Shown piece after piece: positions 1-63,765 of a stretch of DNA of 64,000 bases. The number at the start of each line of letters is the position of its first letter. Position 1 is the first letter of the stretch. A model generated the notes under the pieces. It was not told the DNA's origin, made no database searches, and saw only the letters and a program-made list of their open reading frames with translations. The translations under genes and the position numbers were made by a program. This DNA comes from a virus (lineage: Duplodnaviria; Caudoviricetes): the IMG/VR virus record IMGVR_UViG_3300033121_002101, positions 32,001-96,000 of that record; one strand, written 5' to 3'.

Positions 1-2
1 AG

Positions 3-557
3 CACGAAGCTTTGTACCAACTAGAAGTAGCAGAAAACATCACAAACACCAAATCAGAAAAAGTAGATTCCTCTTTCTTCGAGTCTAGTGAAATACCATG
101 CGAAAACAGTGTGTTTTTAGGTGTTGGATACAAAAGAGATTCTGCGAATTTTTGGAATGTAAAACACTGGGGTGATGAAAACTTTTTTAGATTCGCGCAA
201 CTAGTTTTGTCTGAAAATGAAAATACAAAAATTGTTTTGACTGGAAACAGTTTGGACATTCAAAATGCCGGAAGACTTGTTGCAATGCTTGGTAGTAGGG
301 TTACAATCGCAACTGGGATTAGAAAAAGCATAGAGCTATTATGGAAATGCGGTTCGTATGTTGGTAATGACACTGGCATGATGCATGTTGCTGCAAGCAT
401 GAATAAGAAAGTTATTGGAATTTTTAACTTGGAAGGAACTGAAACAAAGAATCCTCCATTGTGTGACGTTAATAAAGTTATATTAGGATATCATCCACAT
501 AGCAATCCTAGTGCAAAATTTGTGTATGATACATGGAAGGAGCTTATTACAAAATGA
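3..557 (+). CDS. Glycosyltransferase family 9 (heptosyltransferase-like), 5'-truncated by window edge
   Basis: C-terminal GT9 signature YVGNDTGMMHVAASMNKKVIGIF and K-x-W motif (VKHWG); frame stays open to the window start (HEALYQ...). Confidence 0.85.
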   Translation, partial: HEALYQLEVAENITNTKSEKVDSSFFESSEIPCENSVFLGVGYKRDSANFWNVKHWGDENFFRFAQLVLSENENTKIVLTGNSLDIQNAGRLVAMLGSRVTIATGIRKSIELLWKCGSYVGNDTGMMHVAASMNKKVIGIFNLEGTETKNPPLCDVNKVILGYHPHSNPSAKFVYDTWKELITK

Positions 558-1519
558 ATATTCTTTTAACTGGTGCGTTTGGCTTTATAGGCAGAGAAAT
601 AGCAAAAGAGCTGACAAACGCAAAAATAAGGTTTGACGTTTGTGATACAGGGCAAAGCATTTCTAAAAATTATAGATATATGCCGCTTGGGTATACATTG
701 ATTTATGATACTGTTGTTGGTAGCATACCAAACAATATCTTAAGAGAATATGATTGTATAATTCATTGCGGTGCAATTTCAAATTCAAGAGAAAATAATT
801 TTGATCTTTTATGGGATGCGAATTATAATGAAGTTGGAAGATTGCTTTCTTCTATGAAGCACAATGCAAAACTTATTTTCTTTTCATCTGCTTCAGTATA
901 TGGAGACACAAAGTTACCAAATCAAGATTATCCAGTAACATGTGCAGAATCAAAAATTTTTGATCCTCAAACAAAGTATGCATTCTCTAAACTGTCTGCT
1001 GAAAAATTGATACTATTAAACAGCGATCTTGATCAGAATGCTGTAATATTGAGACCATTTAACGTTTATGGCCCTGGCGAGTTTACAAAACAAGATATAA
1101 CGCAATCTATTGTTTATAAACTTTGTGCGTATAAACAACATTTAGATGCTTCTAAAACTGCAAGAGATAAAATAAAATTGCATTCTTTAGATTCTTCAAG
1201 AGATTATGTTAGTGTCAAAGTTGTTTCTAATCTAGTTTTAGATCTGATTAACAAATGGCCAAATAATCAACTCCTTAGTTCTAGGACAATAAACGTAGGA
1301 TCATGCGAAAAAACTTCTTTATACACTCTTACACATTTTGTTGGATTAACAAGAGATGAATATTTCGAAGTTCAAAATCCGTGGGGTAAAGACTATCAAA
1401 GTTGTACAGAAGCAAGTATAATGAATGATTATTATAGAGAACTCATATTAAAGCTTTCTAAAGAATTTAACCTCGTAGATGGAATTAAAGAAATAAAAGA
1501 AAGTATAAAAAATGCTTAA
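554..1519 (+). CDS. hldD: NAD-dependent epimerase, ADP-L-glycero-D-manno-heptose 6-epimerase-like
   Basis: TGAFGFIG Rossmann motif, IIHCGAIS, SSASVYG, YAFSK (YxxxK), RPFNVYGPGE, RDYV; start moved to ATG 554 (ATGA overlap with upstream stop). Confidence 0.7.
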   Translation: MNILLTGAFGFIGREIAKELTNAKIRFDVCDTGQSISKNYRYMPLGYTLIYDTVVGSIPNNILREYDCIIHCGAISNSRENNFDLLWDANYNEVGRLLSSMKHNAKLIFFSSASVYGDTKLPNQDYPVTCAESKIFDPQTKYAFSKLSAEKLILLNSDLDQNAVILRPFNVYGPGEFTKQDITQSIVYKLCAYKQHLDASKTARDKIKLHSLDSSRDYVSVKVVSNLVLDLINKWPNNQLLSSRTINVGSCEKTSLYTLTHFVGLTRDEYFEVQNPWGKDYQSCTEASIMNDYYRELILKLSKEFNLVDGIKEIKESIKNA

Positions 1520-1916
1520 TGTTTGTAACATTTACGATTATACACATGTTGAAAAGTCATGGGGATATGAACTATGGCTTGTAAACAATAATGAATATTG
1601 TGGGAAAGAGTTGTATTTTGATAAACCTGGTGCTCGTACATCGTTACATTACCATGTTGAAAAAAGAGAAACGATGTATTGTAGAAACGGTATATTTGTA
1701 ATTGCATTTCTAACAGAAGATGGTCAATTAGATAAAGTAAAACTAGAGCCTAGACAATCAGTTGAAATACCAAGAGAGTGTGTACATTCCATAATATGCA
1801 TTAAGCCTGGTATGCTTATGGAATTTAGCACTACACATAAAGATGAAGATTCTTATAGAGTCAGCGGCGAAGGTTGGCTAAAAGCTGATTTAAAGAATTT
1901 CAACATAGAAATTTGA
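1512..1916 (+). CDS. Cupin-fold sugar isomerase-like protein
   Basis: KSWGYE..., TSLHYHVEKRETMY cupin motif 1, IPRECVH motif 2, EFST...DSYR. Confidence 0.8.
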   Translation: MLNVCNIYDYTHVEKSWGYELWLVNNNEYCGKELYFDKPGARTSLHYHVEKRETMYCRNGIFVIAFLTEDGQLDKVKLEPRQSVEIPRECVHSIICIKPGMLMEFSTTHKDEDSYRVSGEGWLKADLKNFNIEI

Positions 1917-1920
1917 TTTT

Positions 1921-2805
1921 ATGATAATAAACATAGTAGGACCTCACATAGTAAACAGCCCTTTTGCAACTGAACTTGCTTTCATAAAAGGACTTGTTGA
2001 AATTGGTCATAAAGTTGTACCATTTGACCCAAATGTAGAAAGTCCAGATGTTTTAGACAGAAATGCTGATTATACGCTAATTTTTAAAAATGCACTGTCA
2101 CACAATGATGTTGTATGTTCTTTAGGACCAAAAGTTGTAGTTTATCAGCCTGACGATTTAAGATTTTCGCATGTTAAAAACATGGTAAGTGAGATGCGAA
2201 AATATTCATCGAGATTAATAACTTTTAGAAAATACAAAGACAATTTTGGCTTTATTGACGGTCTTGAACTAACTCAGTTTGAAGAACTTGCAGTTACTGC
2301 AAATCCAGATGTTTACTACAAAAAAGATCTTGAGAAAGATATAGATTTTTGTTTTGTTGGATCACTTGGCGATCCAGCATCACATTGGCAGAGAATTAGA
2401 ATGATAGATCTTCTCAGCAAAAACGGCTATAATACATTTGCTTGTGAGACAAGAGATATAGAATTTATTAGAAATATATTGTCTAGATCTAAAGTTGTGT
2501 TAAACCACGCATCTGATTTGTCACTGCCGTTCGGTCAAGGATACGGATACCAGTGCAGACATTTTGAAGCAGCAATGGCTGAATGTTGTTTGCTTTCAAA
2601 TTCAATTTTAGATGATGAATATACAATAGAAAACTTTGTTCGCTTTGGTTCATTTAAAGATTTTTTTGAAAAAGCAATAATGTTAATTGATTCTGGTGAA
2701 GGATACAGAGCAAATATTGCTAAAAGTTTTAAAGAAGAAGTAATGGCAAACCATTCGCCTAAAATTAGAGCACAACAACTTGTTAATATATTGGAGAAAA
2801 TATGA
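1921..2805 (+). CDS. Glycosyltransferase (CgeB/Glyco_trans_1_2-like)
   Basis: DFCFVGS, SKVVLN, RHFEAAMAECCLLS; GT-B C-terminal pattern. Confidence 0.75.
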   Translation: MIINIVGPHIVNSPFATELAFIKGLVEIGHKVVPFDPNVESPDVLDRNADYTLIFKNALSHNDVVCSLGPKVVVYQPDDLRFSHVKNMVSEMRKYSSRLITFRKYKDNFGFIDGLELTQFEELAVTANPDVYYKKDLEKDIDFCFVGSLGDPASHWQRIRMIDLLSKNGYNTFACETRDIEFIRNILSRSKVVLNHASDLSLPFGQGYGYQCRHFEAAMAECCLLSNSILDDEYTIENFVRFGSFKDFFEKAIMLIDSGEGYRANIAKSFKEEVMANHSPKIRAQQLVNILEKI

Positions 2806-3356
2806 AGCTTAATTTAGGGTGTGGAGAAGACATTAAACAAGGTTACTTGAATGTTGATTTTAGAAAAACGCATCCTCTTGTATTTGAATGCGATCTTTCT
2901 AAATTTCCATGGCCGTGGAAGACTAATTCTGTTGAAACAGTCATGATGTTAGACTTTCTTGAACACTTTAAAATGTCAATGACTGATGTATTGATGTCAG
3001 AAGTTACTAGAATATTGGCGCCAAATGGCGAAGTTATAATACAAGTTCCTGATATGGATATTTTATCCAGTGCTGTATTATGTTTGCCCGCTGTTCCGTG
3101 TAATGTTTGCGGATCGCATTTTGGTTCTGAAGATGATTGCGCAGGTGGATGTTTGCAGACAAGAAGCGGCTTAGCAAAAGCAGCATTCGGAAGAATGTAT
3201 GGTGGCCAAGACTATAATGGCAATTATCACATGACGGGCTTTAATCATTTAACGATTGTAGAGCTGCTAAAAAAGCATGGCTTCAGAGGCTTTTCTTTTG
3301 TAGAAAAAGAACATCAATTTAAAAACTGGAATTTGAAAGTAAAAGCATCACTATGA
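2802..3356 (+). CDS. SAM-dependent methyltransferase
   Basis: KLNLGCG motif I, NVD, FLEH, RILAPNG...VPD. Confidence 0.85.
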   Translation: MKLNLGCGEDIKQGYLNVDFRKTHPLVFECDLSKFPWPWKTNSVETVMMLDFLEHFKMSMTDVLMSEVTRILAPNGEVIIQVPDMDILSSAVLCLPAVPCNVCGSHFGSEDDCAGGCLQTRSGLAKAAFGRMYGGQDYNGNYHMTGFNHLTIVELLKKHGFRGFSFVEKEHQFKNWNLKVKASL

Positions 3357-4411
3357 GTTGCAGTTTAGCGTTCGTTGGAATTAAAAAGAAATTTTCTTCA
3401 ATAGAAAATGAGCTGCAAATATCTGTTTCAGATTTTGTCAGATACCATTTAGAGCTTCCGTGGTATTATTCTTTTTATGGGAAAAATAAAGTTTTCATAA
3501 CAACAGTCGACCAAAAAGATCAATGTTTACTTCCAAATTCGTCTGTTGACGTTACACTTGTTAATGAAACAGATCTTTCAAAATGTGCAGTTGATGTTGT
3601 TATACATTGGAGATCGTGGCAACAGTGGGCATTTGATAGTTTACCAAATTCTTTACATCTACTTCAAACGCAAGATCATTCATTTTCAAATGAATGGATT
3701 AACAATGTAACAAAAGCTATTAGAGAAAAAGCACTTTCTCATATAATAGCTTTTGAAACATGGCATGCAAATAATACACATCTTGAAATACAATCAATTG
3801 AAAAGAATTTTGATCGCAGTTCTATTTTGACAAAGCTCCATCTTGGAGTAGATACTACAATTTACAAACCAAAAGAAAAAGACCCATATAAGCTTTTATG
3901 GGCATCAGATCCAGGAAGAGGTCTACAAAAATGTATAGAAGTATTTTCTATACTTTACAGATTAGATAAAAGGTATAAACTGCATGTTTTATGCCCTGAT
4001 TATGCTAGAAATCCATTTAGCGGAATAAATCATCCCGGAATTGTTACTCACAACAATATAAGAAATTCTCCAGAACTTTGGGATATGTTCAATACATCAA
4101 CATATATCCCATATACATCAACATTCATGGAGCCTTCATCTAGAGTGCACAGGCAAGGACAAGCAGCTGGATGTTGTGTTATATACCCTGAAAATATGGG
4201 GACGCCGTCTGAGCTTATAGTTCACGGTGTCAATGGTGTAATAATGAATGAATGTTCAAAACCATTTGATTGGGCAAATATGATATTATTATTAAATGGT
4301 GATAATTCAAAATCAATCGGAAAATCATCAAGAATGTTTGCATTGACAGAAGACTGGTCTGTGCAAGCTGTTAGATTTAACAATGTTTGTAGTGAGCTTT
4401 TAAACAAATGA
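3353..4411 (+). CDS. Glycosyltransferase (GT4-like)
   Basis: GVDTTIY, WASDPGRGL, YTSTFMEP...QAAGC, ELIVHGVNG. Confidence 0.75.
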   Translation: MSCSLAFVGIKKKFSSIENELQISVSDFVRYHLELPWYYSFYGKNKVFITTVDQKDQCLLPNSSVDVTLVNETDLSKCAVDVVIHWRSWQQWAFDSLPNSLHLLQTQDHSFSNEWINNVTKAIREKALSHIIAFETWHANNTHLEIQSIEKNFDRSSILTKLHLGVDTTIYKPKEKDPYKLLWASDPGRGLQKCIEVFSILYRLDKRYKLHVLCPDYARNPFSGINHPGIVTHNNIRNSPELWDMFNTSTYIPYTSTFMEPSSRVHRQGQAAGCCVIYPENMGTPSELIVHGVNGVIMNECSKPFDWANMILLLNGDNSKSIGKSSRMFALTEDWSVQAVRFNNVCSELLNK

Positions 4412-5328
4412 CAAAATCAATAAATTCCCCAGATTTTAAAAAAAGTTTTATAGACGATAACCACGTAGTTGGATTAATTGGTTATGGTTATATTGGAAAA
4501 GCCGTTCATGCATTATTTGATGGCTTTTTTGATGTGAAAATATATGATGTTGCCAACAAGAATTTAGGTACGCTAGAAGATGTCGTTAAGAATTCTAGCG
4601 TTATTTTTGTTGCAGTACCAACACCAATGAATAAAGATGGATCATGTCATACAGATATTGTTGAGTCTGTACTGAAATCAATACAAGATACTGCAATTTC
4701 TATATCAAGAGATGTAGAAGAGTTCATTGTAGTAATAAAAAGCACTGTTCCACCTGGATTCACTGAAAGAATGTCTGAAAAGCATGCTTTAAGAATAGTT
4801 TTTTCACCTGAATTTTTAACTGAAAAGGACAGTATCGGTGATTTTAAATTTGCATCAAGATTAGTTTTGGGTGGTGCTGAAGAAGATTCTGAAATTGTTC
4901 GTAGTTTTTTTGTTGTTGCATGGTCTGATAGAATACAGGATGAACGCGACAGCGGTTTAGTATTTGTATTTTGTGACAGTACAACAGCAGAACTCGTCAA
5001 ATACTTTACGAATGTCTACTTGACTACGATTGTTATGTTTGCAAATGAGTTCTATAATGTTTGCAAAAACCTTGGTGTCGACTATGACACTGTAAAAGAA
5101 ATTGCTTTGCTTGATAGAAGAATTTCTCATTCGCATCTTAATGTTCCCGGTCACGACGGTAGTTTTGGATTCGGCGGCTCTTGTTTTCCAAAAGACATCA
5201 ACAGTTTAAAGCATATTTGCAATCAACTTGGAATAAATGAAAGATTGTTTTCAGCTATTATTGAAAGAAATAATGAGCTTAGACCGTCACGTGACTGGGA
5301 AGAGTTAAAGGGCAGAGCTGTTGTATGA
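4408..5328 (+). CDS. ugd: UDP-glucose/GDP-mannose dehydrogenase family (short form)
   Basis: GYGYIG, AVPTP, IKSTVPPG, SPEFL, AELVKY, GFGGSCFPKD (catalytic Cys). Confidence 0.9.
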   Translation: MTKSINSPDFKKSFIDDNHVVGLIGYGYIGKAVHALFDGFFDVKIYDVANKNLGTLEDVVKNSSVIFVAVPTPMNKDGSCHTDIVESVLKSIQDTAISISRDVEEFIVVIKSTVPPGFTERMSEKHALRIVFSPEFLTEKDSIGDFKFASRLVLGGAEEDSEIVRSFFVVAWSDRIQDERDSGLVFVFCDSTTAELVKYFTNVYLTTIVMFANEFYNVCKNLGVDYDTVKEIALLDRRISHSHLNVPGHDGSFGFGGSCFPKDINSLKHICNQLGINERLFSAIIERNNELRPSRDWEELKGRAVV

Positions 5329-5876
5329 GAATATTGGTTGATGTTGATGGTGTTGTTGCCGATTTAATCGGCGAATTTTGTAAACGTTGGATGTATGGAA
5401 TAATAACACCAGAGATGATAACACATCACAAAATAGTAAAAAGTCCTGAAATAATTGAATTCCAAATAAAAACAAGCATTAATGTAGGAAAAAATTTTGA
5501 TGAGTTTATGAAAAGCTCACCGTACACTTTTGTTGAACGTATTAAAGGTGCACGTGAAGGAGTAAAAGAACTCATTAAGTTGGGGCATGAAATTGTATTT
5601 TTAACTTCATTATCAGATTATCCAGAGAGTTTTCAATCAAAATATGAATGGATTTCTAGTAATTTTGATAATTTGCCAGTCATAACGTGCCCATCATCAA
5701 TGAAACATTGGGTGCAAGCAGATGCTATAATTGATGATAGAGAAGATATTTGTAAAGCATTTGAAGATTCAGGAATGAATTCATTTTTGTTTGCGCAGCC
5801 ATGGAATTCATCTGAAAAAGTTCGTTACGATTGGGAATCAATCGTAGATTTTTTATCAAAGTATGACAATTTTTGA
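5325..5876 (+). CDS. HAD phosphatase, 5'(3')-nucleotidase (NT5C)-like
   Basis: DVDGVVAD motif I, FLTS motif II, K, IIDD motif IV, FAQPWN. Confidence 0.8.
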   Translation: MRILVDVDGVVADLIGEFCKRWMYGIITPEMITHHKIVKSPEIIEFQIKTSINVGKNFDEFMKSSPYTFVERIKGAREGVKELIKLGHEIVFLTSLSDYPESFQSKYEWISSNFDNLPVITCPSSMKHWVQADAIIDDREDICKAFEDSGMNSFLFAQPWNSSEKVRYDWESIVDFLSKYDNF

Positions 5877-6321
5877 ATATCCAAAAGATTTAGAAAAAAT
5901 TAAAAAGTTTATAGAACACTCAAATATCGTTTTTACAAACGGTTGTTTTGATGTTTTACATGCAGGTCACATGAAAGTTTTAGATGAATCTGTTAGAATA
6001 TCTGATTCATTTTATGGAATTGTTATTGTTGGAGTAGATAGCGATGAGTCTGTTAAAAAATTAAAAGGAAACGATAGACCAATATTTGATGAATATTATA
6101 GATCATATCTTATTTCTAGATTAAGAGGAATTTGTTGTGTTATAATATTTGATACTGGCAGTTTGTTAAGTCTAGTTGAAACTATTTCTCCAAAAGTTAT
6201 AGTCAAAGGCTCTGAATATAAAGAAAAAGATTTTGAATCTTCATACGGAAATAGAAAAGTTACATTTGTTGAAATGTTTAATGACTTGCATACCACTAAA
6301 ATAATTGAGTTTTTAAAATGA
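5863..6321 (+). CDS. hldC: Heptose-1-phosphate adenylyltransferase-like (RfaE domain II)
   Basis: VFTNGCFDVLHAGH, GVDSDESVKKLKGNDRP, VKGSEY. Confidence 0.85.
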   Translation: MTIFEYPKDLEKIKKFIEHSNIVFTNGCFDVLHAGHMKVLDESVRISDSFYGIVIVGVDSDESVKKLKGNDRPIFDEYYRSYLISRLRGICCVIIFDTGSLLSLVETISPKVIVKGSEYKEKDFESSYGNRKVTFVEMFNDLHTTKIIEFLK

Positions 6322-7211
6322 AAATAGCATTGTACGGTGATTTTATAACAGATATTTATAGCTGGGCGTCATTAACAAGATTTTGCCCAGAGCAAGCAGA
6401 TGCACCAATTTATGATTTGCTGACAGATGATAGAGAATTTTTAGGCTGTGCTGGAAATGTTGCAGCAAATATCGCAGCAGCTGTTAGATTTTTTGATAAT
6501 AGTAGCGAAAATGAATTGACAATTTTTGGCTCGATAGGGAGATCTACTCTTGGGAAATTGTTTAGATCACCTATTATGAAAAATGTAAAATTAAATACAG
6601 AAAATGTAAAGTGTTACGATAATTCAATAGTAAAACAAAGAATTGTTTTAGATGAAAAAATTGCTTGCAGAATAGATTCATCAAGATATTTTTGCGGTAG
6701 TCATGATGACAGAGAAGTCACTGTTGGAAGATACGATTTACTCATTATTTCTGACTACTGTTTTGGCGGAGTTGAAGAAAAACTTTGCCGCGATCTTATA
6801 AATAATTCAGAGATTTCAGTTGTCGACACAAAAAGAAAAGACTTATCATTTTATAATGGTGCAACGGCATTTAAATTCAACAGAAGTGAATATGAAAAAT
6901 TTATTTCTGGTGAAATAATACCAAGTGACTGGATAGTTGTTTCAAAGGGCTCTCATGGTTGCTCTGTAATAGAGTCAAGCAAAAGAGTTGTAAGAACAAA
7001 TATGCCCGCCTGGCCAGCAAATGAAATAGATGTAACTGGGTGTGGTGATACATTTACATCAGTACTTGGTCTTGCATTGGCACATGGTAAAGGAATTGAA
7101 ATGGCTGCATACGCAGCAAATTACATTGCTTCAAAAGTTGTCTCAAGGTTTGGTCCAGCTGTACCAACAGGCGAAGAATTACTTACTGCTTTAGAAAAAG
7201 GAATAATATGA
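6318..7211 (+). CDS. hldA: PfkB kinase, heptose-7-phosphate kinase-like (RfaE domain I)
   Basis: GDFITDIY, GCAGNVAANI, ISDY, VDTK, DVTGCGDTF. Confidence 0.8.
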   Translation: MKIALYGDFITDIYSWASLTRFCPEQADAPIYDLLTDDREFLGCAGNVAANIAAAVRFFDNSSENELTIFGSIGRSTLGKLFRSPIMKNVKLNTENVKCYDNSIVKQRIVLDEKIACRIDSSRYFCGSHDDREVTVGRYDLLIISDYCFGGVEEKLCRDLINNSEISVVDTKRKDLSFYNGATAFKFNRSEYEKFISGEIIPSDWIVVSKGSHGCSVIESSKRVVRTNMPAWPANEIDVTGCGDTFTSVLGLALAHGKGIEMAAYAANYIASKVVSRFGPAVPTGEELLTALEKGII

Positions 7212-10589: not shown

Positions 10590-10596
10590 GGATTAA

Positions 10597-50596: not shown

Positions 50597-50911
50597 ATGT
50601 TTACACCATCAATATTCGCGCCGATAGTTTCTGGAAGCTGGAAAATAAGTAGAGTACAAGCCAGTGCAACACCTGTTTTACTGCTTTCTGGGTCTTCATT
50701 TGGAAGAAGAGAAGCTGCAATTTATAACCACGGAAGCGGTTCACTTTACATTGCACCGGGCCCAAACGTTAGCGTAAATTATTTTGCAGCTAAAATAGGA
50801 TCTGGTTCATATTACGAAATGCCAATTCCAACATACCAAGGAGAGGTGTATGGAATATGGGATGCAGCAAATGGCTGGGCAATGATAAGCGATAAACAAT
50901 CAGGAGAATGA
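50597..50911 (+). CDS. Small beta-sandwich virion decoration-like protein (paralog of 58866)
   Basis: RR...IYN.G..SLYI...PIPTYQGEVY; four SGS. Confidence 0.6.
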   Translation: MFTPSIFAPIVSGSWKISRVQASATPVLLLSGSSFGRREAAIYNHGSGSLYIAPGPNVSVNYFAAKIGSGSYYEMPIPTYQGEVYGIWDAANGWAMISDKQSGE

Positions 50912-51016: not shown

Positions 51017-52150
51017 ATGACATTTGCAAGCGGCAGTAGCACACCATTCGGAATATTTGATGGAGACGCAGCATTCAGATTAGATGCTGATAAAGTACTT
51101 GAATACGTTGCTAGAAGATTGGGAGATTCTCACGTTCAAGTAGAATTAAGCTCATCAGATGTTTATGCAGCATTTGAAGAATCTGCTATGGAATATAGCA
51201 GCTTAGTAAACGCATATCAAGCAAAATCTGTCATGTCATCTTTCTTGGGCACGTCGACTGGCAGCATGACAGGTGCTGAAAATACATACCCACAAAATAG
51301 CTTAGAGTGGGCAAGACGTCAAGCAGAATCTTATTCTGAGCTTGCTGGATTAAACTCTCATGCTGCTTTGCATAAGACTTCTATTACACTTACATCTGGT
51401 CAACAAGACTATGATTTGCAGCTGTTGATTTCACCAACAGGATCAGATGGTCTTCCTAGAAGAATGATTATATCAGAAATATATCATTACGCTCCGCTTA
51501 CAGCACAAAGAATGTTCGGAACAACTTCATTCTTGAACTATTTGGATTCACAGTTTAAATTTGAGAGCTACACTCCAGAGACGGTGTTTTATCTTCTACC
51601 GATCTGGGAAGACATTCTACGTGGTATGCAGTTTGAAACGTCAAACAGAGTAAGAAGAAGCAATTACAGTTATGCACTCCATGACAATGTTCTTACTTTA
51701 TATCCGCAACCAACAACTGGTGGAACTTTATGGTTGACATACAGAATAGCTGAAGCAACTCCGCTCGGCGGGTCTGGTACATCTGCAGATCCATCTGTTC
51801 ATGGCGTTGCAAATGTGTCAAATATTCCATTTGGAAATATAGAATATTCAAAGCTCAATTCTCTCAGCAAGAGGTGGATATGGCAAATGACTCTTGCCAT
51901 TTCAAAAGAGACAATGGGATATATTAGAAGAAAGATAAACAGCATACCAGTGCCAGGTGGTGATTCTGTTACACTAGACGGAGCTGATCTTGTTTCAGAT
52001 GCACGTTCAGAAATGGAAAGACTCAGGTCAGATCTAAAAGAATTGCTTGAAGATATGACATATGACAAGCTTGCTGAAAGAGAATCTCAGAAAACTCAAT
52101 CACTATTAGATGCAATGAAACAAGTCCCACTGAAAATATTCGTAGGATAA
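51017..52150 (+). CDS. Neck/head-tail adaptor (gp13-like)
   Basis: RRLG...VELS, IPVPGGDSVTLDG; position. Confidence 0.8.
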   Translation: MTFASGSSTPFGIFDGDAAFRLDADKVLEYVARRLGDSHVQVELSSSDVYAAFEESAMEYSSLVNAYQAKSVMSSFLGTSTGSMTGAENTYPQNSLEWARRQAESYSELAGLNSHAALHKTSITLTSGQQDYDLQLLISPTGSDGLPRRMIISEIYHYAPLTAQRMFGTTSFLNYLDSQFKFESYTPETVFYLLPIWEDILRGMQFETSNRVRRSNYSYALHDNVLTLYPQPTTGGTLWLTYRIAEATPLGGSGTSADPSVHGVANVSNIPFGNIEYSKLNSLSKRWIWQMTLAISKETMGYIRRKINSIPVPGGDSVTLDGADLVSDARSEMERLRSDLKELLEDMTYDKLAERESQKTQSLLDAMKQVPLKIFVG

Positions 52151-54302: not shown

Positions 54303-56669
54303 ATGTCAAATACGTTTAGTTCACCCTCTGTTTCTGCCAACGAAATAGATCAGTCATTTAGCGCAACAGAAGGACCATCAAATGGTGCTGCACTTGTTGG
54401 TACTACACCAAAAGGTCCAGCTTTTAAACCTGTTGTTGTTAGAAAATTTGATGAATTTAGGCAAGTGTTTGGAGAACTTGATCCAGCACATCCGCTTACA
54501 TTCGCTGCATTTAACTATTTAAAGAACGGAAGTTCTCTAAGAGTTATTAGAGTTCTTGGTAACGATGACGGAACGTCAACTCAAACTGGATACAACGTCG
54601 ACGGAATTGTCGGCATTTCAGATGTAAGTGGAGCAATTGGTGCAACTGGATCAATTCTTGCTGAAATACACTATTCTGGAACAAAACCAACAGTCGTTGG
54701 TGTAGCTTCTGACGCAAACAGGTTTGTTATTTCATTTGGAAGCGTATTCTCAGCAACAGCTTCATTCCAAACAAGTTCAGCTGACTATATTGGAAAAGTT
54801 CTTAATACCGATCCAACGAAATATTCAACGTATTACCACTATGTCTCTTCAGTTTACAAGTATCAGCCGCAAGCAGCTTCTGCTTCATGGTGGTCTGTAA
54901 GTACGCTATCAGCATCATGGAAAACATTTGATCGTGACCACGAGCAAGGACAAACACCATGGTTCAAGTCACAATTGCTTGGTGGACAGGAATTTGATTT
55001 ATTCAAACTGTTTACGCGTGCAGATGGCCGTTCAACAAATGACGACGTAAAAGTTACAATCGCAAATGTTAGACCGTCTGCAAATCCAACAATTTATCCG
55101 TACGGCACATTTGATTTAGCAGTTAGAGATTTCAATGATTCAGATACAAGGCCAGTTGTTCTTGAGTCATTCACTGGATTGAACTTCGATCCAGATGATA
55201 GAAACTACATTCTAAGAAAAATTGGAGATGTTAACGAAACATTCTCAGATACAGAGAGAAAGTTCCAAGTAACTGATGGATCTTGGCCGGGTTCACCTGG
55301 TTCAAGATACATTAGAGTTAAACTTTCAGATTCTAACTTCCCAGCAGAAGCTCTTCCGTGGGGACACAGAGGATTTCCGAAGTTACTCTATTCTGGCTCT
55401 GCTGGTACAACAGGTGCAGGTGGACAGAACAAAGTTCCAGATCTGATTTACAATGCATTCCAACGTGATTCGCAAGGTAATCCAAATGATTTAGTTTGTT
55501 TCGGAGTACTCTTCGTTTCTGGCGGTGTTGCAGACAGAATGAGAGCATTCCCAGATATCCCAACAAGTGATGCTGCAATGACAGGATCAGATGCTGGCTT
55601 CTCACTCAAGGGACTTACATCATTCAGTGACAATGGAACTACACGCTGGTATTGGTCATCTGCTGGTACAGCATATCAGCCACTTTATGCATCTGGTTCT
55701 GTACAGAAGTTCACAGTTCCATTCTACGGTGGATTTGATGGGTGGGATTTAAGAGTTCAAAACCCAATCGGCCAGTGGACATTAACAAATGATGCGCTTG
55801 AAGCTTCAAGCATTGGTGTTGTATCTCTTAAGAGAGCAATCGATGTAATTCGCAATCCAGACTTACTTGACATGAACGTTCTTGCAATACCGGGTGTTCA
55901 CAACAAGAGAGTTACAGATTATGCACGTTCGATGGCGAATGAACGCAAAGATGTTCTCTACATCGTCGATGTTACAGGTTCAACTGTTTCTGAAGTTGAG
56001 TCTGCATTGACAGCTCGTGAGATTGATGACAACTACGCAGCATGCTATTATCCAGACGTAAAGCAAGAGCACCCAAATGTTCCAGGAAGACTAGTAAGAG
56101 TTCCAGCTTCAGTCGCTGCTATTGCTGCTATTGGTTACACAGATAGAGTTGCGCAACCATTCTTTGCACCAGCTGGTATGAATCGTGGTGGTTTAACAGA
56201 CAACTTTGGAATTAAAGATGTTGTTGACAGACTTGATTTCAAGGATCGCGATAGACTTTATGATGCAAGAATTAACCCAATTGGTACGTTTACAAAAGAA
56301 GGCGTTGTAATCTACGGACAAAAGACGCTGCAAGCAAGACCAAGTGCTCTTGATAGAGTAAATGTAAGAAGACTGCTTATTCTTGCAAAGAAGAGCGTTC
56401 TGCAAGAAGCAAAAGAATTACTGTTTGAACCGAACAATGCAGGAACATGGACACGCTTTGTCAACAAGGTAAATCCAATACTTGACCGTATTAGACGTGA
56501 CCAGGGAATCGAGCGCTTCCGTGTAGTGATGGATTCTACGACAAATACACCAGACATAATCGATCGTAATGCAATGTACGGAAAAATCATACTCCAACCA
56601 ACAAAAGCAGTTGAGTTTGTATCAATTGACTTTGTAATAACAAATGCTGGAGTTGCTTTCGGTAGCTGA
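54303..56669 (+). CDS. gp18: Tail sheath protein
   Basis: SPSV...EIDQS, GPAFKP, FAPAGMNRG, LYDARINPI, LDRVNVRRLL. Confidence 0.95.
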   Translation: MSNTFSSPSVSANEIDQSFSATEGPSNGAALVGTTPKGPAFKPVVVRKFDEFRQVFGELDPAHPLTFAAFNYLKNGSSLRVIRVLGNDDGTSTQTGYNVDGIVGISDVSGAIGATGSILAEIHYSGTKPTVVGVASDANRFVISFGSVFSATASFQTSSADYIGKVLNTDPTKYSTYYHYVSSVYKYQPQAASASWWSVSTLSASWKTFDRDHEQGQTPWFKSQLLGGQEFDLFKLFTRADGRSTNDDVKVTIANVRPSANPTIYPYGTFDLAVRDFNDSDTRPVVLESFTGLNFDPDDRNYILRKIGDVNETFSDTERKFQVTDGSWPGSPGSRYIRVKLSDSNFPAEALPWGHRGFPKLLYSGSAGTTGAGGQNKVPDLIYNAFQRDSQGNPNDLVCFGVLFVSGGVADRMRAFPDIPTSDAAMTGSDAGFSLKGLTSFSDNGTTRWYWSSAGTAYQPLYASGSVQKFTVPFYGGFDGWDLRVQNPIGQWTLTNDALEASSIGVVSLKRAIDVIRNPDLLDMNVLAIPGVHNKRVTDYARSMANERKDVLYIVDVTGSTVSEVESALTAREIDDNYAACYYPDVKQEHPNVPGRLVRVPASVAAIAAIGYTDRVAQPFFAPAGMNRGGLTDNFGIKDVVDRLDFKDRDRLYDARINPIGTFTKEGVVIYGQKTLQARPSALDRVNVRRLLILAKKSVLQEAKELLFEPNNAGTWTRFVNKVNPILDRIRRDQGIERFRVVMDSTTNTPDIIDRNAMYGKIILQPTKAVEFVSIDFVITNAGVAFGS

Positions 56670-59555: not shown

Positions 59556-59556
59556 A

Positions 59557-62500
59557 ATGCCACTGCACCCACCTGGGCCGCCTACAATAAATGTTTCTGG
59601 ATCAGATGCTGCTATAGTACCTGTATCCATTCAACCGCAAACAGTACCTGCGTCTTACGTAACAGTTAGACTTACGAATGGAGATTCATATTATACAGCT
59701 GGTGGAACATCTGTAAGCGGAGGAAGTGTATTAACTGCAGATCAAGGTTCTCCAAATACTATTGGAAATGCATGGCCAGTAAAAATAACAGATGGCACAA
59801 ACATTTATGGCTCTAGAACAGTACCGATACATAGCTTAATTGCGTCTGGCGGTATAGGTGTTGGCGTCAGTAGTGTTTCAAGTATAGGCGCATTACGTGT
59901 TGATGTTGTACAGACAACTGGAATGCCATCTGGTTCACTTACGGGATTACTTGTTGGCGGATTAAATGTAGCAAATTCAAATCCAGTTCCAGTCTCAGAT
60001 GCTGGTGGAAGCATTACAGTTGATGGCACGGTGACCGCTGCACAAGGTACAGCAGCAGCCATTGGGTCACCATGGCCAGTGATAATAGTGTCAGGCAGTG
60101 ACGCAGTAGGGACACAGACACATCCTACGTGGATTACTGGGTCTGTATCAATTACAAATCAAGCAGGTGCTGGTTCAAACGTAACTGTTTTATCTGGTTC
60201 ACTAACAGGTTTGCTCGTCGGAGGTGTAACACTTTCAAATGCAAACCCTGTACCGATTTCAGATGCGGGTGGAAGTTTAACGGTTGACGGAACTGTAGTT
60301 GTAACATCAACTGTAATAAATTCAGGATCAGTTGCTGGTGTTTTAATTGGCGGGCAACCAGCATCAAATGCAAATCCAATTCCAATTTCAGACGCAGGCG
60401 GAAGTATAACTGTTGACGGAACAGTAACAACAGCGCAAGGAACACCAGCAAGCATAGCTTTACCGTGGCCTGTAATCATTGTTTCTGGTAGTGATCCAGT
60501 AGGAACGCAAACACATCCAACGTGGATTACAGGCTCAGTTTCTCTTACAAACCAAGCAGGAGTCTCTGCTAATGTCACAACACAATCTGGTTCAGTTGCT
60601 GGATTACTGATTGGTGGACTCAGCGTTGCTAATTCAAATCCAATTCCTATTTCTGACGCTGGTGGAAGTATAACTGTAGACGGTACTGTAACTGTAACTT
60701 CAACTGCTATAAACTCTGGTTCAATTACTGGACTTTTAATTGGTGGTGTTGCACTTTCAAATGCAAACCCAGCTCCAATTTCAGATGCAGGTGGGTCGAT
60801 CACAGTTGACGGAACTGTAACTGTTACACAAGGTACAGCAGCTGGAATAGGCGCGCCATGGCCAGTTGTTTTGGTTTCTGGCAGTAACGTTGTCGGCTCA
60901 ACGACTAATCCGATATGGGTTACTGGTTCTGTATATACATTAAATCCGGGAGCTGCAGGTTCAAATGTAACTTCTCTTTCAGGTTCAATAACAGGATTGC
61001 TTGTTGGTGGACTCAACGTAGCGAATTCAAACCCGATACCAATCTCTGATGCAGGTGGATCTATTACTGTTGACGGATCGGTCACTGTCACATCTACTGT
61101 GATTAATTCTGGCTCTGTTGCAGGTGTCCTTATTGGTGGACAACCTGCAACAAATGCCAACCCAGTGCCAATATCTGATGCTGGTGGATCACTTACAGTT
61201 GATGGCACTGTTACAACGACGCAAGGTACACCAGCAAGCATTGGTTCACCATGGCCAGTAATACTTGTATCTGGCAGCAACGTTGTTGGTTCAACAACAA
61301 ATCCAATTTGGGTAACAGGATCTGTTTACACGCTTAATCCAGGTGGCGCAGGCTCAAATGTAACTGCTTTATCTGGGTCTATCACTGGATTACTTGTTGG
61401 TGGCTTGAATGTAGCAAACTCAAATCCAGTACCAATCTCAGACGCAGGTGGAAGCATTACAGTTGATGGAAGTGTTACTACAACTCAAGGAACAGCAGCA
61501 AGTATAAATGCTCCATGGCCAGTCATTATCGTTTCTGGTAGCGATCCTGTAGGGACACAGACTCACCCAACTTGGATTACAGGTTCAGTTTCTTTAACAA
61601 ACCAAGCAGGCGTATCTGCGAATGTTACAACACAATCTGGTTCAGTAATAGGATTACTTGTTGGTGGGCTCAACGTAGCGAACGCTAACCCAGTGCCAAT
61701 ATCAGACGCAGGCGGATCAATAACTGTAGACGGAACAGTCACAGCAACTGTTGTTTCAACTGTTATAAACTCTGGTTCATTAACAGGGTTATTACTTGGT
61801 GGAGTAGCTGCATCAAATGCAAATCCAATTCCTATTTCTGATGCTGGCGGATCACTTACAGTAGACGGTACTGTAACAGCTGCTCAAGGTACAGCTGCAA
61901 GTATAGGCGCACCATGGCCAGTTATTATTGTTTCAGGAAGTGACCCTGTAGGAACGCAAACACATCCAACATGGATTACAGGTTCTGTGGCTATTACAAA
62001 TCAAGCAGGTGTTTCTGCTAACGTGACAGTACAGTCAGGATCAACGACTGGGCTACTTGTTGGTGGACTCAACGTTGCAAATAGCAATCCAGTTCCAATA
62101 TCAGACGCAGGTGGAAGTTTAACAATTGATGGAACAGTTGCTGCAACACAAGGAACTCCAGCAGCAATTAGTTCACCGTGGCCAGTAATACTTGTTTCTG
62201 GCAGTGATGTAATTGGGTCTACAACTAATCCAATTTGGGTAACAGGGTCTGTTTATACGTTGAATACTGGAGCAGCAGGATCAAATGTAACAGCGCTTTC
62301 AGGTTCAGTTACAGGACTTTTATTGGGTGGGCTTAGTGTAGCGAATAATAACCCAATTCCTATTTCAGATTCAGGTGGATCAATAACTGTAGACGGAACA
62401 GTTACGGTCACTTCTACAATAATCAATTCTGGTTCAGTTTCTGGAATTCTTATTGGTGGACAACCAGCAACGAATGCAAATCCAGTTCCAATATCAGACG

Positions 62501-63765
62501 CTGGTGGAAGCATTACTGTTGATGGAACAGTTACAGTTACATCAACAGCAATAAATTCTGGCTCACTTACTGGCTTACTTGTTGGTGGTGTTGCACTTTC
62601 AAACGCAAATCCCGTTCCTATCTCTGATGCAGGTGGATCGATTACAGTTGATGGAACTGTAACAGCGACTGTTGCTTCAACTGTTATAAACTCTGGTTCG
62701 TTAACGGGATTGTTGCTTGGTGGAGTAGCTGTATCAAATGCAAACCCAATTCCTATCTCTGATGCGGGCGGAAGTTTAACTGTTGATGGAACTGTAACTG
62801 TTGCATCTACGGTGATCAATTCAGGATCTGTTGCTGGCGTCCTTATTGGTGGTCAACCAGCTTCAAACGCAAACCCCGTACCAATATCTGACGCAGGTGG
62901 AAGCATAACCGTTGATGGCACTGTAACTGCTACAGTTGCTTCGACAATAATAACATCTGGTTCAGTTACTGGATTATTAGTCGGCGGTGTTGCAACATCA
63001 AACGCAAATCCAATCCCAATTTCTGACGCAGGTGGAAGCATCACTGTAGACGGAACAGTTGTCGTTAGCTCTGCTACAATAAGTTCTGGTTCAATTACAG
63101 GATTACTTGTTGGAGGTCTTAACGTAGCAAACAGCAATCCAGTGCCAATTTCTGATGCTGGTGGAAGCATTACAATAGATGGAACTGTAACAGCAACTGT
63201 TGCATCTACTGTAATATCTACAGGTTCAATCACAGGTCTGCTTGTTGGCGGACTTAACGTAGCCAACTCAAATCCAATACCAATTTCTGATGCTGGTGGG
63301 TCACTTACAGTTGATGGTACTGTTACTATTGCATCTGGTTCTGTCACTGGGCTTCTAGTTGGCGGTGTTGCAGTAAGCGGTACAAACCCAGTGCCCGCTA
63401 TAGCATATGACGGAATGGGAGCACAATGGCAATCTGGGTCTATGAGAGAAATCTCATATGCATTTTTAAACTCAGCTACATCTGGTTCTACTCAAATAGT
63501 AGCTGCTCAGGGCGCAGGAATAAAAATAACTGTTTTATCAGTTCACGTAATGACAACATCTGCTGTTAGTGTACAATTTACTTCATCAGGAAGCTCAGGT
63601 AATACTAATAAAACAGGTTTTTATCCTATAGCTGCAAACGGGGGATTTGTTTTACCACACAATCCACACGGCTGGTTCAGAACTAATGCTAACGAACATT
63701 TATGTTTAGGATTAAGCGCAGCTGTATTCACAGCTGCAACGATAACATGGATGCCAAGCATATAA
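59557..63765 (+). CDS. Large repetitive fibre/decoration protein
   Basis: 19 NP.P[IV]SD.GGS.T.DG.V units plus 7 PWPV modules; C-terminal IVAA.GAG...AANGGFVLP.NP.GWF domain. Confidence 0.75.
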   Translation: MPLHPPGPPTINVSGSDAAIVPVSIQPQTVPASYVTVRLTNGDSYYTAGGTSVSGGSVLTADQGSPNTIGNAWPVKITDGTNIYGSRTVPIHSLIASGGIGVGVSSVSSIGALRVDVVQTTGMPSGSLTGLLVGGLNVANSNPVPVSDAGGSITVDGTVTAAQGTAAAIGSPWPVIIVSGSDAVGTQTHPTWITGSVSITNQAGAGSNVTVLSGSLTGLLVGGVTLSNANPVPISDAGGSLTVDGTVVVTSTVINSGSVAGVLIGGQPASNANPIPISDAGGSITVDGTVTTAQGTPASIALPWPVIIVSGSDPVGTQTHPTWITGSVSLTNQAGVSANVTTQSGSVAGLLIGGLSVANSNPIPISDAGGSITVDGTVTVTSTAINSGSITGLLIGGVALSNANPAPISDAGGSITVDGTVTVTQGTAAGIGAPWPVVLVSGSNVVGSTTNPIWVTGSVYTLNPGAAGSNVTSLSGSITGLLVGGLNVANSNPIPISDAGGSITVDGSVTVTSTVINSGSVAGVLIGGQPATNANPVPISDAGGSLTVDGTVTTTQGTPASIGSPWPVILVSGSNVVGSTTNPIWVTGSVYTLNPGGAGSNVTALSGSITGLLVGGLNVANSNPVPISDAGGSITVDGSVTTTQGTAASINAPWPVIIVSGSDPVGTQTHPTWITGSVSLTNQAGVSANVTTQSGSVIGLLVGGLNVANANPVPISDAGGSITVDGTVTATVVSTVINSGSLTGLLLGGVAASNANPIPISDAGGSLTVDGTVTAAQGTAASIGAPWPVIIVSGSDPVGTQTHPTWITGSVAITNQAGVSANVTVQSGSTTGLLVGGLNVANSNPVPISDAGGSLTIDGTVAATQGTPAAISSPWPVILVSGSDVIGSTTNPIWVTGSVYTLNTGAAGSNVTALSGSVTGLLLGGLSVANNNPIPISDSGGSITVDGTVTVTSTIINSGSVSGILIGGQPATNANPVPISDAGGSITVDGTVTVTSTAINSGSLTGLLVGGVALSNANPVPISDAGGSITVDGTVTATVASTVINSGSLTGLLLGGVAVSNANPIPISDAGGSLTVDGTVTVASTVINSGSVAGVLIGGQPASNANPVPISDAGGSITVDGTVTATVASTIITSGSVTGLLVGGVATSNANPIPISDAGGSITVDGTVVVSSATISSGSITGLLVGGLNVANSNPVPISDAGGSITIDGTVTATVASTVISTGSITGLLVGGLNVANSNPIPISDAGGSLTVDGTVTIASGSVTGLLVGGVAVSGTNPVPAIAYDGMGAQWQSGSMREISYAFLNSATSGSTQIVAAQGAGIKITVLSVHVMTTSAVSVQFTSSGSSGNTNKTGFYPIAANGGFVLPHNPHGWFRTNANEHLCLGLSAAVFTAATITWMPSI
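59929..63396 (+). repeat. Two-module protein repeat array
   Basis: Directly visible in the translation; heavily synonymous-diverged at DNA level. Confidence 0.95.

What the first reader, a model, noticed from the sequence alone, without database searches (positions are those of the whole stretch)
1..63765. Candidate virion glycosylation system: heptose/GT cluster plus an S-G-S acceptor motif on exterior virion proteins
Seen: a cluster with a GT9, two other GTs, a methyltransferase and HldA/HldC/HldD/Ugd homologues sits just upstream of the late sigma and baseplate genes, while exterior structural proteins repeat S-G-S/T-G-S. Established: bacterial AAH/TibC heptosyltransferases use ADP-heptose to modify serines in Ser-Gly turns of AIDA-I/TibA repeats (TV.SGG-like), and some mycobacteriophages glycosylate their virions with phage-encoded GTs. 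The recurring STVINSGS in the 1402-aa protein resembles such acceptor turns. Inference: the phage makes its own nucleotide-heptose and builds a glycan, possibly extended and methyl-capped, on SGS sites across capsid, sheath, baseplate and fibre. Alternatives are host LPS remodelling or DNA glycosylation.
Basis: partly seen in the sequence, partly recalled or inferred. Interest (0 to 1): 0.92.

Follow-up and report, generated by a model that had tools for sequence, protein, structure and literature searches.

The report
Probable sugar-attachment motif on phage virions
An uncultured 197-kb T4-like phage and its relatives carry a large set of soluble sugar-building enzymes, and their outward-facing particle proteins hold the tripeptide Ser/Thr-Gly-Ser about four times too often, so the particles are probably sugar-coated at this motif, though no chemistry has tested it.

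Summary
The glycan island has about 18 genes (genome 21,847-39,211; the window holds its last ten). It encodes at least 8 glycosyltransferase (GT) domains, two of them GT9, two methyltransferases and HldA/HldC/HldD-like genes. None has a membrane segment.

In 41 virion proteins, leaving out the 1402-aa repeat protein, TGS (31 seen, 6.9 expected) and SGS (38 seen, 11.0 expected) are the two most over-represented of all 8000 tripeptides. In the other 228 proteins they are at expectation. The excess depends on residue order and acts at protein level. The sites are conserved in orthologues and lie in the outer parts of capsid and sheath proteins.

The excess recurs in seven relatives (GC 34-66%; Flavobacterium, Microcystis and Rhodothermus phages). 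It is absent from T4, a cyanophage and one jumbo relative.

Relatives without GT9 or hld genes keep the excess, and the GT9 lacks the TibC/AAH hallmarks. All seven relatives with the excess carry the first of two conserved soluble GT4-type genes that lie upstream of the window, and six carry both. Heptose is probably a variable outer sugar.

Glycosylation remains inferred. Earlier notes of this scan describe the same motif and a conserved GT pair on other genomes.

The parts
1..557 (+). 3' part of g51, a GT9 (heptosyltransferase-family) gene of 302 aa that starts 351 bases upstream of the window
   Evidence: PF01075 E 7e-13 on the window part and 2e-12 on the whole gene. Best PDB match is WaaF 1PSW, with no TibC hit. 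It has four Cys and no CxxC.
533..1519 (+). g52, HldD-like SDR epimerase
   Evidence: TIGR02197 heptose_epim E 1.8e-33 over the full length, 116 bits against a cut-off of 274.6.
1512..1916 (+). g53, WbuC-type cupin; a possible non-SIS sugar-phosphate isomerase (speculative)
   Evidence: TIGR04366 E 1e-5 and Cupin_2.
1921..2805 (+). g54, GT-B glycosyltransferase (Glyco_trans_1_2)
   Evidence: PF13524 E 1.2e-9.
2802..3356 (+). g55, SAM methyltransferase
   Evidence: PF08241 E 3e-4; weak MftM-like match (oligosaccharide methyltransferase).
3353..4411 (+). g56, probable further GT-B glycosyltransferase
   Evidence: PF00534 E 0.011 only; homologue in G002.
4408..5328 (+). g57, nucleotide-sugar dehydrogenase (Ugd-like, 306 aa); one of the island genes conserved in distant relatives
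   Evidence: TIGR03026 E 2.5e-48. Homologues lie beside the core GTs in G007 and G009.
5325..5876 (+). g58, HAD/NT5C-type phosphatase; candidate substitute for GmhB
   Evidence: PF06941 E 4e-11. The role is inferred from its position between the kinase and nucleotidyltransferase genes.
5863..6321 (+). g59, HldC-like sugar-1-phosphate adenylyltransferase
   Evidence: TIGR02199 E 2.4e-32 over the full length, below the cut-off.
6318..7211 (+). g60, HldA-like PfkB sugar-phosphate kinase
   Evidence: TIGR02198 E 2e-34 over the full length, below the cut-off.
10597..12414 (+). g69, baseplate wedge (gp6-like); 3 [ST]GS against 0.7 expected
   Evidence: phrog_219; counts.
12411..13775 (+). g70, baseplate-module protein; 8 [ST]GS against 0.8 expected
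   Evidence: Orthologues in G001 and G002 are also motif-rich.
13772..16654 (+). g71, LamG-domain baseplate or fibre protein; 7 [ST]GS against 1.3 expected
   Evidence: PF13385. Its orthologues carry 18 and 21 [ST]G[ST].
16658..18595 (+). g72, baseplate-module protein; 5 against 1.2 expected
23181..25817 (+). g76, baseplate-module protein; 5 against 1.2 expected
26592..27587 (+). g78, baseplate-module protein; 5 against 0.6 expected
27610..29361 (+). g79, LamG-domain protein; 9 against 1.7 expected
   Evidence: PF13385 E 3e-13.
44793..46481 (+). g97, major capsid protein (gp23-like). Six of its seven [ST]G[ST] lie in residues 115-310, which include an insert of about 100 aa absent from T4 gp23
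   Evidence: phrog_138. PDB alignment to T4 gp23. Site conservation in 7 relatives. Regional counts.
50597..50911 (+). g103, 104-aa protein with four SGS (0.3 expected); function unknown
   Evidence: The G002 orthologue also has 4.
51017..52150 (+). g104, neck/adaptor-like protein; 3 against 0.6 expected
   Evidence: phrog_211.
54303..56669 (+). g108, tail sheath. All 6 [ST]G[ST] lie in the non-conserved middle (residues 105-589); none lies in the conserved N-terminal and C-terminal parts
   Evidence: phrog_23. Alignment to T4 gp18 covers only 4-104 and 590-786. Counts.
59557..63765 (+). g115, 1402-aa all-beta repeat protein (19 units of 43-45 or 88 aa) with 38 [ST]GS; probable fibre
   Evidence: No Pfam family. 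The AF2 model is low-confidence and all-beta. A homologue in G002 lies next to the capsid gene.

Best explanation
The phage builds a glycan in the cytoplasm and attaches it by O-linkage to Ser/Thr in a short sequon, [S/T]-[G>A]-[S>T], usually flanked by hydrophobic residues. The sequon sits on the outward-facing parts of capsid, sheath, baseplate, neck and fibre proteins.

The attachment step is most likely done by one or both of two soluble GT4-type enzymes, g43 and the N-terminal domain of g45, which lie just upstream of the window. The remaining GTs (including the two GT9 domains), the methyltransferases and the nucleotide-sugar genes extend and cap the glycan. Those sugar genes are the HldA/HldC/HldD-like set, the Ugd-like dehydrogenase and the GalE/TviC-like epimerase. 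Their make-up differs between relatives: heptose here, amino sugars in Flavobacterium phage immuto.

Shown: the island, its solubility, and the motif's specificity, conservation, location and distribution among relatives. Inferred: that the motif is glycosylated, which GT starts the glycan, which residue carries it and what the sugars are.
For: 1. TGS and SGS rank 1 and 2 of 8000 tripeptides in virion proteins (z 9.2 and 8.1) and are at expectation in the 228 other proteins.
2. The excess depends on order. SGS 38 against SSG 10 and GSS 12; TGS 31 against 6-18 for its permutations; N/D-G-S is not enriched. Block shuffles give 19.9 +/- 4.3 against 69 observed.
3. Pooled over 8 genomes, each position is specific. 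At position 1 only T (4.5x) and S (3.9x) are enriched. At position 2, G is enriched 3.9-4.5x and A 2x. At position 3, S is enriched 3.9-4.5x and T 1.5-2.2x.
4. Selection acts on the protein: 43 distinct 9-mers among 69 sites, with background codon usage. The excess holds in relatives with 61-66% GC.
5. The motif-bearing proteins share no BLAST-detectable domain.
6. Motif hydroxyl residues stay S/T in 67-70% of orthologue comparisons, against 41% for other S/T. There is also site turnover.
7. Sites lie in the capsid protein's insert region and the sheath's non-conserved middle. Portal, protease, tube and the conserved cores have none.
8. Distribution: the excess is present in G001, G002, G007, G009, immuto, Mel-JY01 and RM378. 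All carry a g43 homologue, and all but RM378 a g45N homologue. It is absent in T4 and cyanophage P-RSM6, which lack both.
9. The island has no membrane protein, flippase or polymerase.
10. The core GTs are kept in phages of three host phyla, which argues for a phage-borne acceptor.
11. Mel-JY01 and RM378 have no ThyA/dCMP-hydroxymethylase family gene.
12. Precedents: TibC heptosylates Ser in N-S-G-G-A-V and T-S-A-A-V turns (PMC4358343). Mycobacteriophage virion glycosylation is cited in the library.
Against: No chemical evidence of any glycan on any of these virions.

All genomes with the excess belong to one broad lineage, so co-occurrence with the GT genes may reflect shared ancestry only. 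Just three genomes without the excess were tested.

The 484-kb relative LR756508 has a g43 homologue but no excess (z 1.4). RM378 has the excess without a g45N homologue. No single GT therefore predicts the motif perfectly.

A conserved S-G-S turn could be structural. Surface exposure was not shown, because both AF2 models were poor (pLDDT 36 and 48).

Expression timing of the island was not established.

Heptose and multi-sugar glycans on phage 5hmC DNA are published. A kinase + HAD phosphatase + nucleotidyltransferase trio makes the DNA sugar donor in RB69/DLP3.
Confidence: 0.55

Rival explanations
1. The [ST]-G-S excess is a lineage-specific structural habit (tight turns between beta strands) or the site of another modification. 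The island works on something else, most likely the host envelope: LPS core or surface polysaccharide remodelling from the cytoplasmic face during infection.
For: GT9 enzymes are classically LPS core heptosyltransferases, and the best PDB match of g51 is WaaF. Hydrophobic residues flank the motif (59% at position -1 and 56% at +1, against 39% background), as expected for strand-turn-strand. All genomes with the excess are one lineage. LR756508 keeps a g43 homologue without the excess.
Against: N-G and D-G, the usual turn formers, are not enriched, and both flanking positions require a hydroxyl residue. T4 and cyanophage homologues of the same folds show no excess; TGS is even the least frequent tripeptide relative to expectation in T4 structural proteins. 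The core GTs are conserved in phages of Bacteroidota, Cyanobacteria and Rhodothermota, whose envelopes differ. The island has no lipid-carrier, flippase, ligase or other membrane component.
Confidence: 0.2
2. The island, or at least its kinase/phosphatase/nucleotidyltransferase/GT9 branch, makes a sugar donor and glycan for DNA hypermodification (heptosyl or oligosaccharide on 5-hydroxymethylcytosine). The protein motif is unrelated.
For: Phage clusters that put mono-heptose, di-heptose and up to trisaccharides on 5hmC are published (bioRxiv 10.1101/2023.12.21.572611). RB69/DLP3 use a GmhB-like HAD phosphatase and a nucleotidyltransferase, among other enzymes, to make the arabinose donor for DNA (PMC13326640). 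This genome has a ThyA-family gene at 124,678-125,358. Earlier notes describe an hmC plus Bgt-like module there.
Against: That DNA module lies about 85 kb away and is reported to have its own Bgt-like GT (not re-tested here). No island protein matched a T4 alpha- or beta-glucosyltransferase family in Pfam. Eight or more GT domains and two methyltransferases far exceed any known DNA glycan. Mel-JY01 and RM378 keep the core GT and the motif but have no ThyA/hydroxymethylase family gene. This reading does not explain the virion-restricted motif.
Confidence: 0.1
3. One reading: the GT9 enzyme acts like AAH/TibC and puts ADP-heptose directly on the serines of S-G-S turns.
For: There are two GT9 domains and HldA/HldC/HldD-like genes. 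TibC sites N-S-G-G-A-V and T-S-A-A-V resemble V-I-N-S-G-S-V in the repeat protein.
Against: G007, G009 and immuto have no GT9 or hld genes yet keep the full excess. g51 is 302 aa, has no room for TibC's N-terminal beta-barrel, has no CxxC iron finger and gives no TibC hit in the PDB. No GmhA is encoded.
Confidence: 0.1

Closest known systems
Mycobacteriophage virion glycosylation by phage-encoded glycosyltransferases (Che8-type; Freeman et al. 2023). Known here only through citing papers, e.g. PMC11256854
   Same: Phage-encoded soluble GTs presumed to act in the cytoplasm on the phage's own structural proteins.
   Different: From memory, those phages are siphoviruses of Actinobacteria with one to a few GTs acting on Ser/Thr-rich C-terminal tails of capsid and tail-tube proteins. 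Here a T4-like myovirus lineage with Gram-negative and cyanobacterial hosts has an island of about 18 genes and a defined internal tripeptide motif on many proteins. The tube has none.
Bacterial autotransporter heptosyltransferases AAH/TibC acting on AIDA-I/TibA (PMC4358343)
   Same: Cytoplasmic O-glycosylation of serines followed by small residues (S-G-G, S-A-A) in beta-rich repeat proteins. GT9 chemistry and an ADP-heptose donor are available in this phage.
   Different: The GT9 here lacks the beta-barrel, thumb and iron finger. The motif persists in relatives without any GT9. Many non-repetitive proteins carry it, and position 3 needs Ser/Thr.
Giant-virus capsid glycosylation (chlorovirus PBCV-1 Vp54, Mimivirus fibrils; PMC9614988, PMC5408694)
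   Same: A virus-encoded autonomous glycan machinery with unusual sequons. g43 has a weak sequence match to the PBCV-1 GT B736L (3OY2, E 3e-6).
   Different: Those are eukaryotic viruses with mostly N-linked glycans on a single capsid protein. No homology beyond the generic GT4 fold was shown.
Phage DNA sugar hypermodification clusters (5hmC glycans including heptose; bioRxiv 10.1101/2023.12.21.572611)
   Same: Phage-encoded GTs related to LPS enzymes plus sugar-activation genes; heptose is used.
   Different: Those clusters sit beside a cytosine methyltransferase and a TET-type dioxygenase (the paper's 5mYOX family) and build 1-3 sugars. This island has no such neighbour and many more GTs, and it goes with a protein motif.

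Membership tests
BAHT family (TibC/AAH autotransporter heptosyltransferases) | GT9-type nucleotide-heptose-binding C-lobe | tested here: met
   PF01075 E 2e-12 for g51 and 7e-8 for the middle domain of g45.
BAHT family (TibC/AAH autotransporter heptosyltransferases) | N-terminal beta-barrel of about 100 aa and closer sequence kinship to TibC than to LPS heptosyltransferases | tested here: not met
   g51 is 302 aa. The PDB search finds WaaF 1PSW (E 8e-7) and a GT9 of unknown function, with no TibC chain even at E <= 1.
BAHT family (TibC/AAH autotransporter heptosyltransferases) | Iron finger of four cysteines (TibC C339, C342, C358, C370) | tested here: not met
   g51 has four scattered Cys and no CxxC pair. 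The feature is taken from PMC4358343.
BAHT family (TibC/AAH autotransporter heptosyltransferases) | Dodecameric ring and processive heptosylation of a beta-helix substrate | not testable with these tools
   Needs biochemistry or cryo-EM.
ADP-L-glycero-D-manno-heptose pathway (GmhA, HldA, GmhB, HldC, HldD) | GmhA, the SIS-domain sedoheptulose-7-phosphate isomerase | tested here: not met
   No SIS or SIS_2 domain in the 196.5-kb genome. The host enzyme or the cupin g53 would have to supply this step (inference).
ADP-L-glycero-D-manno-heptose pathway (GmhA, HldA, GmhB, HldC, HldD) | HldA kinase, HldC adenylyltransferase and HldD epimerase | tested here: inconclusive
   The best NCBIfam matches cover the full length (E 2e-34, 2.4e-32, 1.8e-33), but all score 35-62% of the equivalog cut-offs. 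The sugar could be a relative of heptose.
ADP-L-glycero-D-manno-heptose pathway (GmhA, HldA, GmhB, HldC, HldD) | GmhB, the HAD bisphosphate phosphatase | tested here: inconclusive
   g58 is a HAD enzyme of the NT5C type, in the right position but with no GmhB model match.
Phage virion O-glycosylation systems (mycobacteriophage type) | Phage-encoded soluble GTs encoded beside structural genes | tested here: met
   The island abuts the baseplate genes and has no membrane segments.
Phage virion O-glycosylation systems (mycobacteriophage type) | Glycan covalently bound to virion proteins | not testable with these tools
   Needs glycan staining and mass spectrometry of virions.
Phage DNA sugar hypermodification clusters | GT adjacent to the enzymes that make the hydroxymethyl or hydroxy pyrimidine, or a T4 alpha/beta-GT-like enzyme | tested here: not met
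   The only ThyA-family gene lies at 124,678-125,358, about 85 kb from the island. Pfam gives no alpha- or beta-glucosyltransferase family for island proteins. Relatives with the core GT lack a ThyA-family gene.
Wzx/Wzy- or ABC-dependent O-antigen/capsule loci | Initiating phosphoglycosyltransferase, flippase or ABC exporter, polymerase or ligase (membrane proteins) | tested here: not met
   No island protein has two or more hydrophobic segments. The three single 19-aa windows above threshold lie inside soluble enzyme folds. This is a simple hydropathy scan, not a dedicated predictor.

The most novel reading that the evidence does not exclude
A broad lineage of environmental T4-like phages, with hosts in at least three bacterial phyla, coats its particles by a sequon-directed cytoplasmic O-glycosylation system. 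One or two soluble GT4 enzymes, conserved in most members, start the glycan on [S/T]-G-S. A rapidly changing set of sugar genes (heptose, amino sugars and, by unchecked notes of this scan, fucose) gives each phage its own glycan type. This would be a viral counterpart of O-antigen serotypes.
Probability: 0.4. Interest if true: 0.9.

Novelty: new variant of a known kind. Interest (0 to 1): 0.8.

Why it matters
Virion glycosylation by phage-encoded enzymes is documented only for some mycobacteriophages, and no attachment motif is known for any phage.

If [S/T]-G-S is a sequon, glycosylated phage proteins could be predicted from sequence. It would mean that many abundant aquatic phages carry a sugar coat, and that coat could affect adsorption, stability, grazing, aggregation and recognition by host defences or antibodies.

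It would also give a soluble O-glycosylation system with a three-residue tag of possible use in glycoengineering. Three cultured relatives (immuto, Mel-JY01, RM378) make the idea directly testable.

Tried and rejected
- Megablast of 25 kb against 50,697 phage records found nothing, so relatives had to be found by protein.
- The T4 late-promoter consensus TATAAATA is rare (5 copies) and not placed before late genes. Intergenic regions gave no clear motif, so the island's expression timing was not settled.
- The 'late sigma' could not be identified by Pfam, PHROGs, BLAST or phmmer against annotated sigma genes of RM378 and P-RSM6.
- The AF2 model of the capsid protein with an 8-sequence alignment (pLDDT 36) and of the C-terminal third of the repeat protein (pLDDT 48, all-beta) were too poor for surface mapping or fold search.
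- A DNA-level origin of the motif was rejected.
- Local S/G/T-rich composition was rejected as the cause.
- A shared hidden domain was not found by BLAST, but remote homology was not excluded.
- No complex prediction was run, because enzyme-substrate pairs are poor subjects for it.
- Library searches found no paper on glycosylated T4-like virions or on this motif.
Full report
**Setting.** The window is positions 32,001-96,000 of a 196,531-bp IMG/VR virus record estimated 96% complete. It has 37% GC, and all window genes lie on the + strand. PHROGs and Pfam identify these genes:
- gp25- and gp6-like baseplate wedge genes (10179-12414)
- two LamG-domain proteins
- large terminase, portal and prohead protease
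- a gp23-like major capsid protein (44793-46481)
- a tail sheath (54303-56669) and a tail tube

The nearest cultured phages by capsid protein are Flavobacterium phage immuto (42% identity), Microcystis phage Mel-JY01 (35%) and Rhodothermus phage RM378 (31%). T4 is at 26%.

**The gene cluster.**
- a GT9
- an HldD-like epimerase
- a cupin
- a GT-B enzyme
- a methyltransferase
- a Ugd-like dehydrogenase
- a HAD phosphatase
- an HldC-like adenylyltransferase
- an HldA-like kinase

The three Hld matches are full-length best hits, but they score well below NCBI's equivalog cut-offs. 'Heptose' is therefore the best reading, not a proven one.

The window cuts the island. It continues 10 kb upstream with a GT4 (g43), a GalE/TviC-like epimerase, a 1055-aa protein with GT4, GT9 and GT2 domains (g45), another GT4, a DUF2334 protein, a further GT and a second methyltransferase. 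In all there are about 18 tightly packed genes with at least 8 clear GT domains.

None of these proteins has a transmembrane topology, and there is no flippase, polymerase or lipid-carrier transferase. No GmhA (SIS domain) exists anywhere in the genome. The 'late sigma' could not be confirmed.

**The motif.** I called ORFs over the whole genome. For every tripeptide I compared counts with expectation from each protein's own composition.
- In 41 virion-module proteins, with the 1402-aa repeat protein left out, TGS (31 against 6.9) and SGS (38 against 11.0) are the two most over-represented of all 8000 tripeptides. In the 228 other proteins they are at expectation: 9 against 9.4 and 15 against 16.7.
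- The excess depends on residue order. SGS 38 compares with SSG 10 and GSS 12. TGS 31 compares with 6-18 for its five permutations. NGS and DGS are not enriched.
- Shuffling within 30-residue blocks gives 19.9 +/- 4.3 [ST]GS against 69 observed.
- The 69 sites use 43 different 9-mers with ordinary codon usage, so selection acts on the protein.
- The proteins that carry the motif share no BLAST-detectable domains.
- Rich proteins are the baseplate-module proteins g70-g72, g76, g78 and g79, the capsid protein, a 104-aa protein with four SGS, a neck protein and the sheath. Portal, protease, the proteins between protease and capsid gene (presumed scaffold), and the tube have none.
- The 1402-aa protein holds 38 sites, but these come from 19 tandem repeats.

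**Position within proteins.** The sheath aligns to T4 gp18 only at residues 4-104 and 590-786. All six of its [ST]G[ST] sites lie in the non-conserved middle. From memory, that region corresponds to the protruding domains of gp18.

The capsid protein aligns to T4 gp23 with an insert of about 100 residues. Six of its seven sites lie in residues 115-310. Structure models were too poor to show exposure directly.

**Conservation.** In pairwise alignments with orthologues from two relatives (25-60% identity), the motif's hydroxyl residues remain Ser/Thr in 67-70% of cases, against 41% for other Ser/Thr of the same proteins. The whole tripeptide is kept in 48%. Orthologues also gain and lose sites while staying motif-rich or motif-free as a protein. 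In the capsid alignment the first serine of each site is kept in all seven closer relatives, while position 2 varies among G, A and S.

| Genome | g43 homologue | g45N homologue | GT9 / hld genes | TGS and SGS excess |
|---|---|---|---|---|
| G001 (185 kb, 66% GC) | yes | yes | yes | top-ranked in virion proteins only |
| G002 (107 kb, 61% GC) | yes | yes | yes | top-ranked in virion proteins only |
| G007, G009 (capsid about 45% identical) | yes | yes | none | rank 1 and 2 in homologues of our virion proteins |
| Flavobacterium phage immuto | yes | yes | none | SGS first, TGS fourth proteome-wide |
| Microcystis phage Mel-JY01 | yes | yes | GT9 domain only; hld not examined | excess present |
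| Rhodothermus phage RM378 | yes | no | not searched | excess present |
| LR756508 (484 kb) | yes | no | not searched | none (z 1.4) |
| T4 | no | no | not searched | none; 0 TGS against 5.5 expected in structural proteins |
| Cyanophage P-RSM6 (22,900 aa of structural proteins) | no | no | not searched | none |

In immuto, amino-sugar genes follow the same two leading GTs in the island.

Among 50,697 cultured-phage records, g45N homologues occur only in immuto and Mel-JY01. g43 homologues occur in those two plus RM378 and LR756508.

Pooled over eight genomes the motif is sharply defined:
- Position 1: T 4.5x and S 3.9x; nothing else is enriched.
- Position 2: G 3.9-4.5x, A 2x.
- Position 3: S 3.9-4.5x, T 1.5-2.2x.

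**Reading.** The motif is a selected, lineage-specific feature of outward-facing virion proteins. It goes together with a soluble GT island whose first two GTs are widely conserved and whose sugar-supply genes vary.

The conserved GTs persist in phages of Bacteroidota, Cyanobacteria and Rhodothermota. This argues for a phage-borne acceptor and against a host envelope molecule.

DNA is the other phage-borne candidate, and heptosylated 5hmC is published. A kinase/HAD/nucleotidyltransferase trio also makes the DNA arabinose donor in RB69. Three points count against it:
- Earlier notes place the hmC module of this genome about 85 kb away with its own GT; I confirmed only the ThyA-family gene there.
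- Mel-JY01 and RM378 have no ThyA-family gene at all.
- The DNA reading leaves the protein motif unexplained.

I therefore favour sequon-directed O-glycosylation of the virion (0.55). In this reading g43 and/or g45N start the glycan, and GT9 with heptose acts as a variable extension.

- The enrichment survives in relatives without GT9 or hld genes.
- g51 lacks the beta-barrel and iron finger of TibC and matches WaaF instead.
- The resemblance of V-I-N-S-G-S-V to the TibC sites N-S-G-G-A-V and T-S-A-A-V is real, but it does not identify the enzyme.

**Caveats.**
- No chemistry exists.
- All genomes with the excess form one lineage.
- LR756508 and RM378 show that neither conserved GT alone predicts the motif.
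- Exposure and expression timing are unproven.
- The cupin as a GmhA substitute is speculation.

**Earlier notes of this scan** describe the same [S/T]-G-S motif travelling with a conserved GT pair on other genomes, and similar islands with fucose or heptose supply. They are unchecked AI notes, and I count them as leads only.

Noticed in passing
window 30837-34049: A single 1070-aa ORF joins an SbcD-like nuclease (residues 1-376) to an SbcC-like ATPase (206-1063). These are the gp47 and gp46 equivalents, which are separate genes in T4 and in cyanophage P-RSM6.
   Followed up: no
L003:3156-4139 (genome 98,856-99,839, just beyond the window end): A dTDP-glucose 4,6-dehydratase-like gene (phrog_540 E 4.5e-73; TIGR01181 E 4e-53) sits directly after the fibre-like genes. 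It is a further sugar gene outside the main island.
   Followed up: partly
G001 and G002 (loci L017-L032): Two relatives are syntenic with the window in the island and virion modules (25-63% protein identity) but have 66% and 61% GC, against 37% here. This is a very large compositional shift within one phage lineage.
   Followed up: no
window, virion genes: The serine codon TCC is almost unused (4 of 1482 Ser codons) and the threonine codon ACC is rare (20 of 938) in the structural genes.
   Followed up: no
G002:83737-87486 and LR756508:145763-149923: Portal homologues of 1249 and 1386 aa, against 622 aa here, match only in part. This suggests an intein or a fused domain in those relatives.
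   Followed up: no
LR756508:202463-208426: Two sheath paralogues of 824 aa each lie about 1 kb apart in the 484-kb relative.
   Followed up: no
Mel-JY01 (PP395634.1) 83444-84908: The g43 homologue is split into two adjacent ORFs (198 and 313 aa). This could be a frameshift, an intron or a sequencing error.
   Followed up: no
window 44793-46481: Relative to T4 gp23, the major capsid protein has an insert of about 100 residues (about 115-232). It was the only part of the poor AF2 model with pLDDT above 50.
   Followed up: partly
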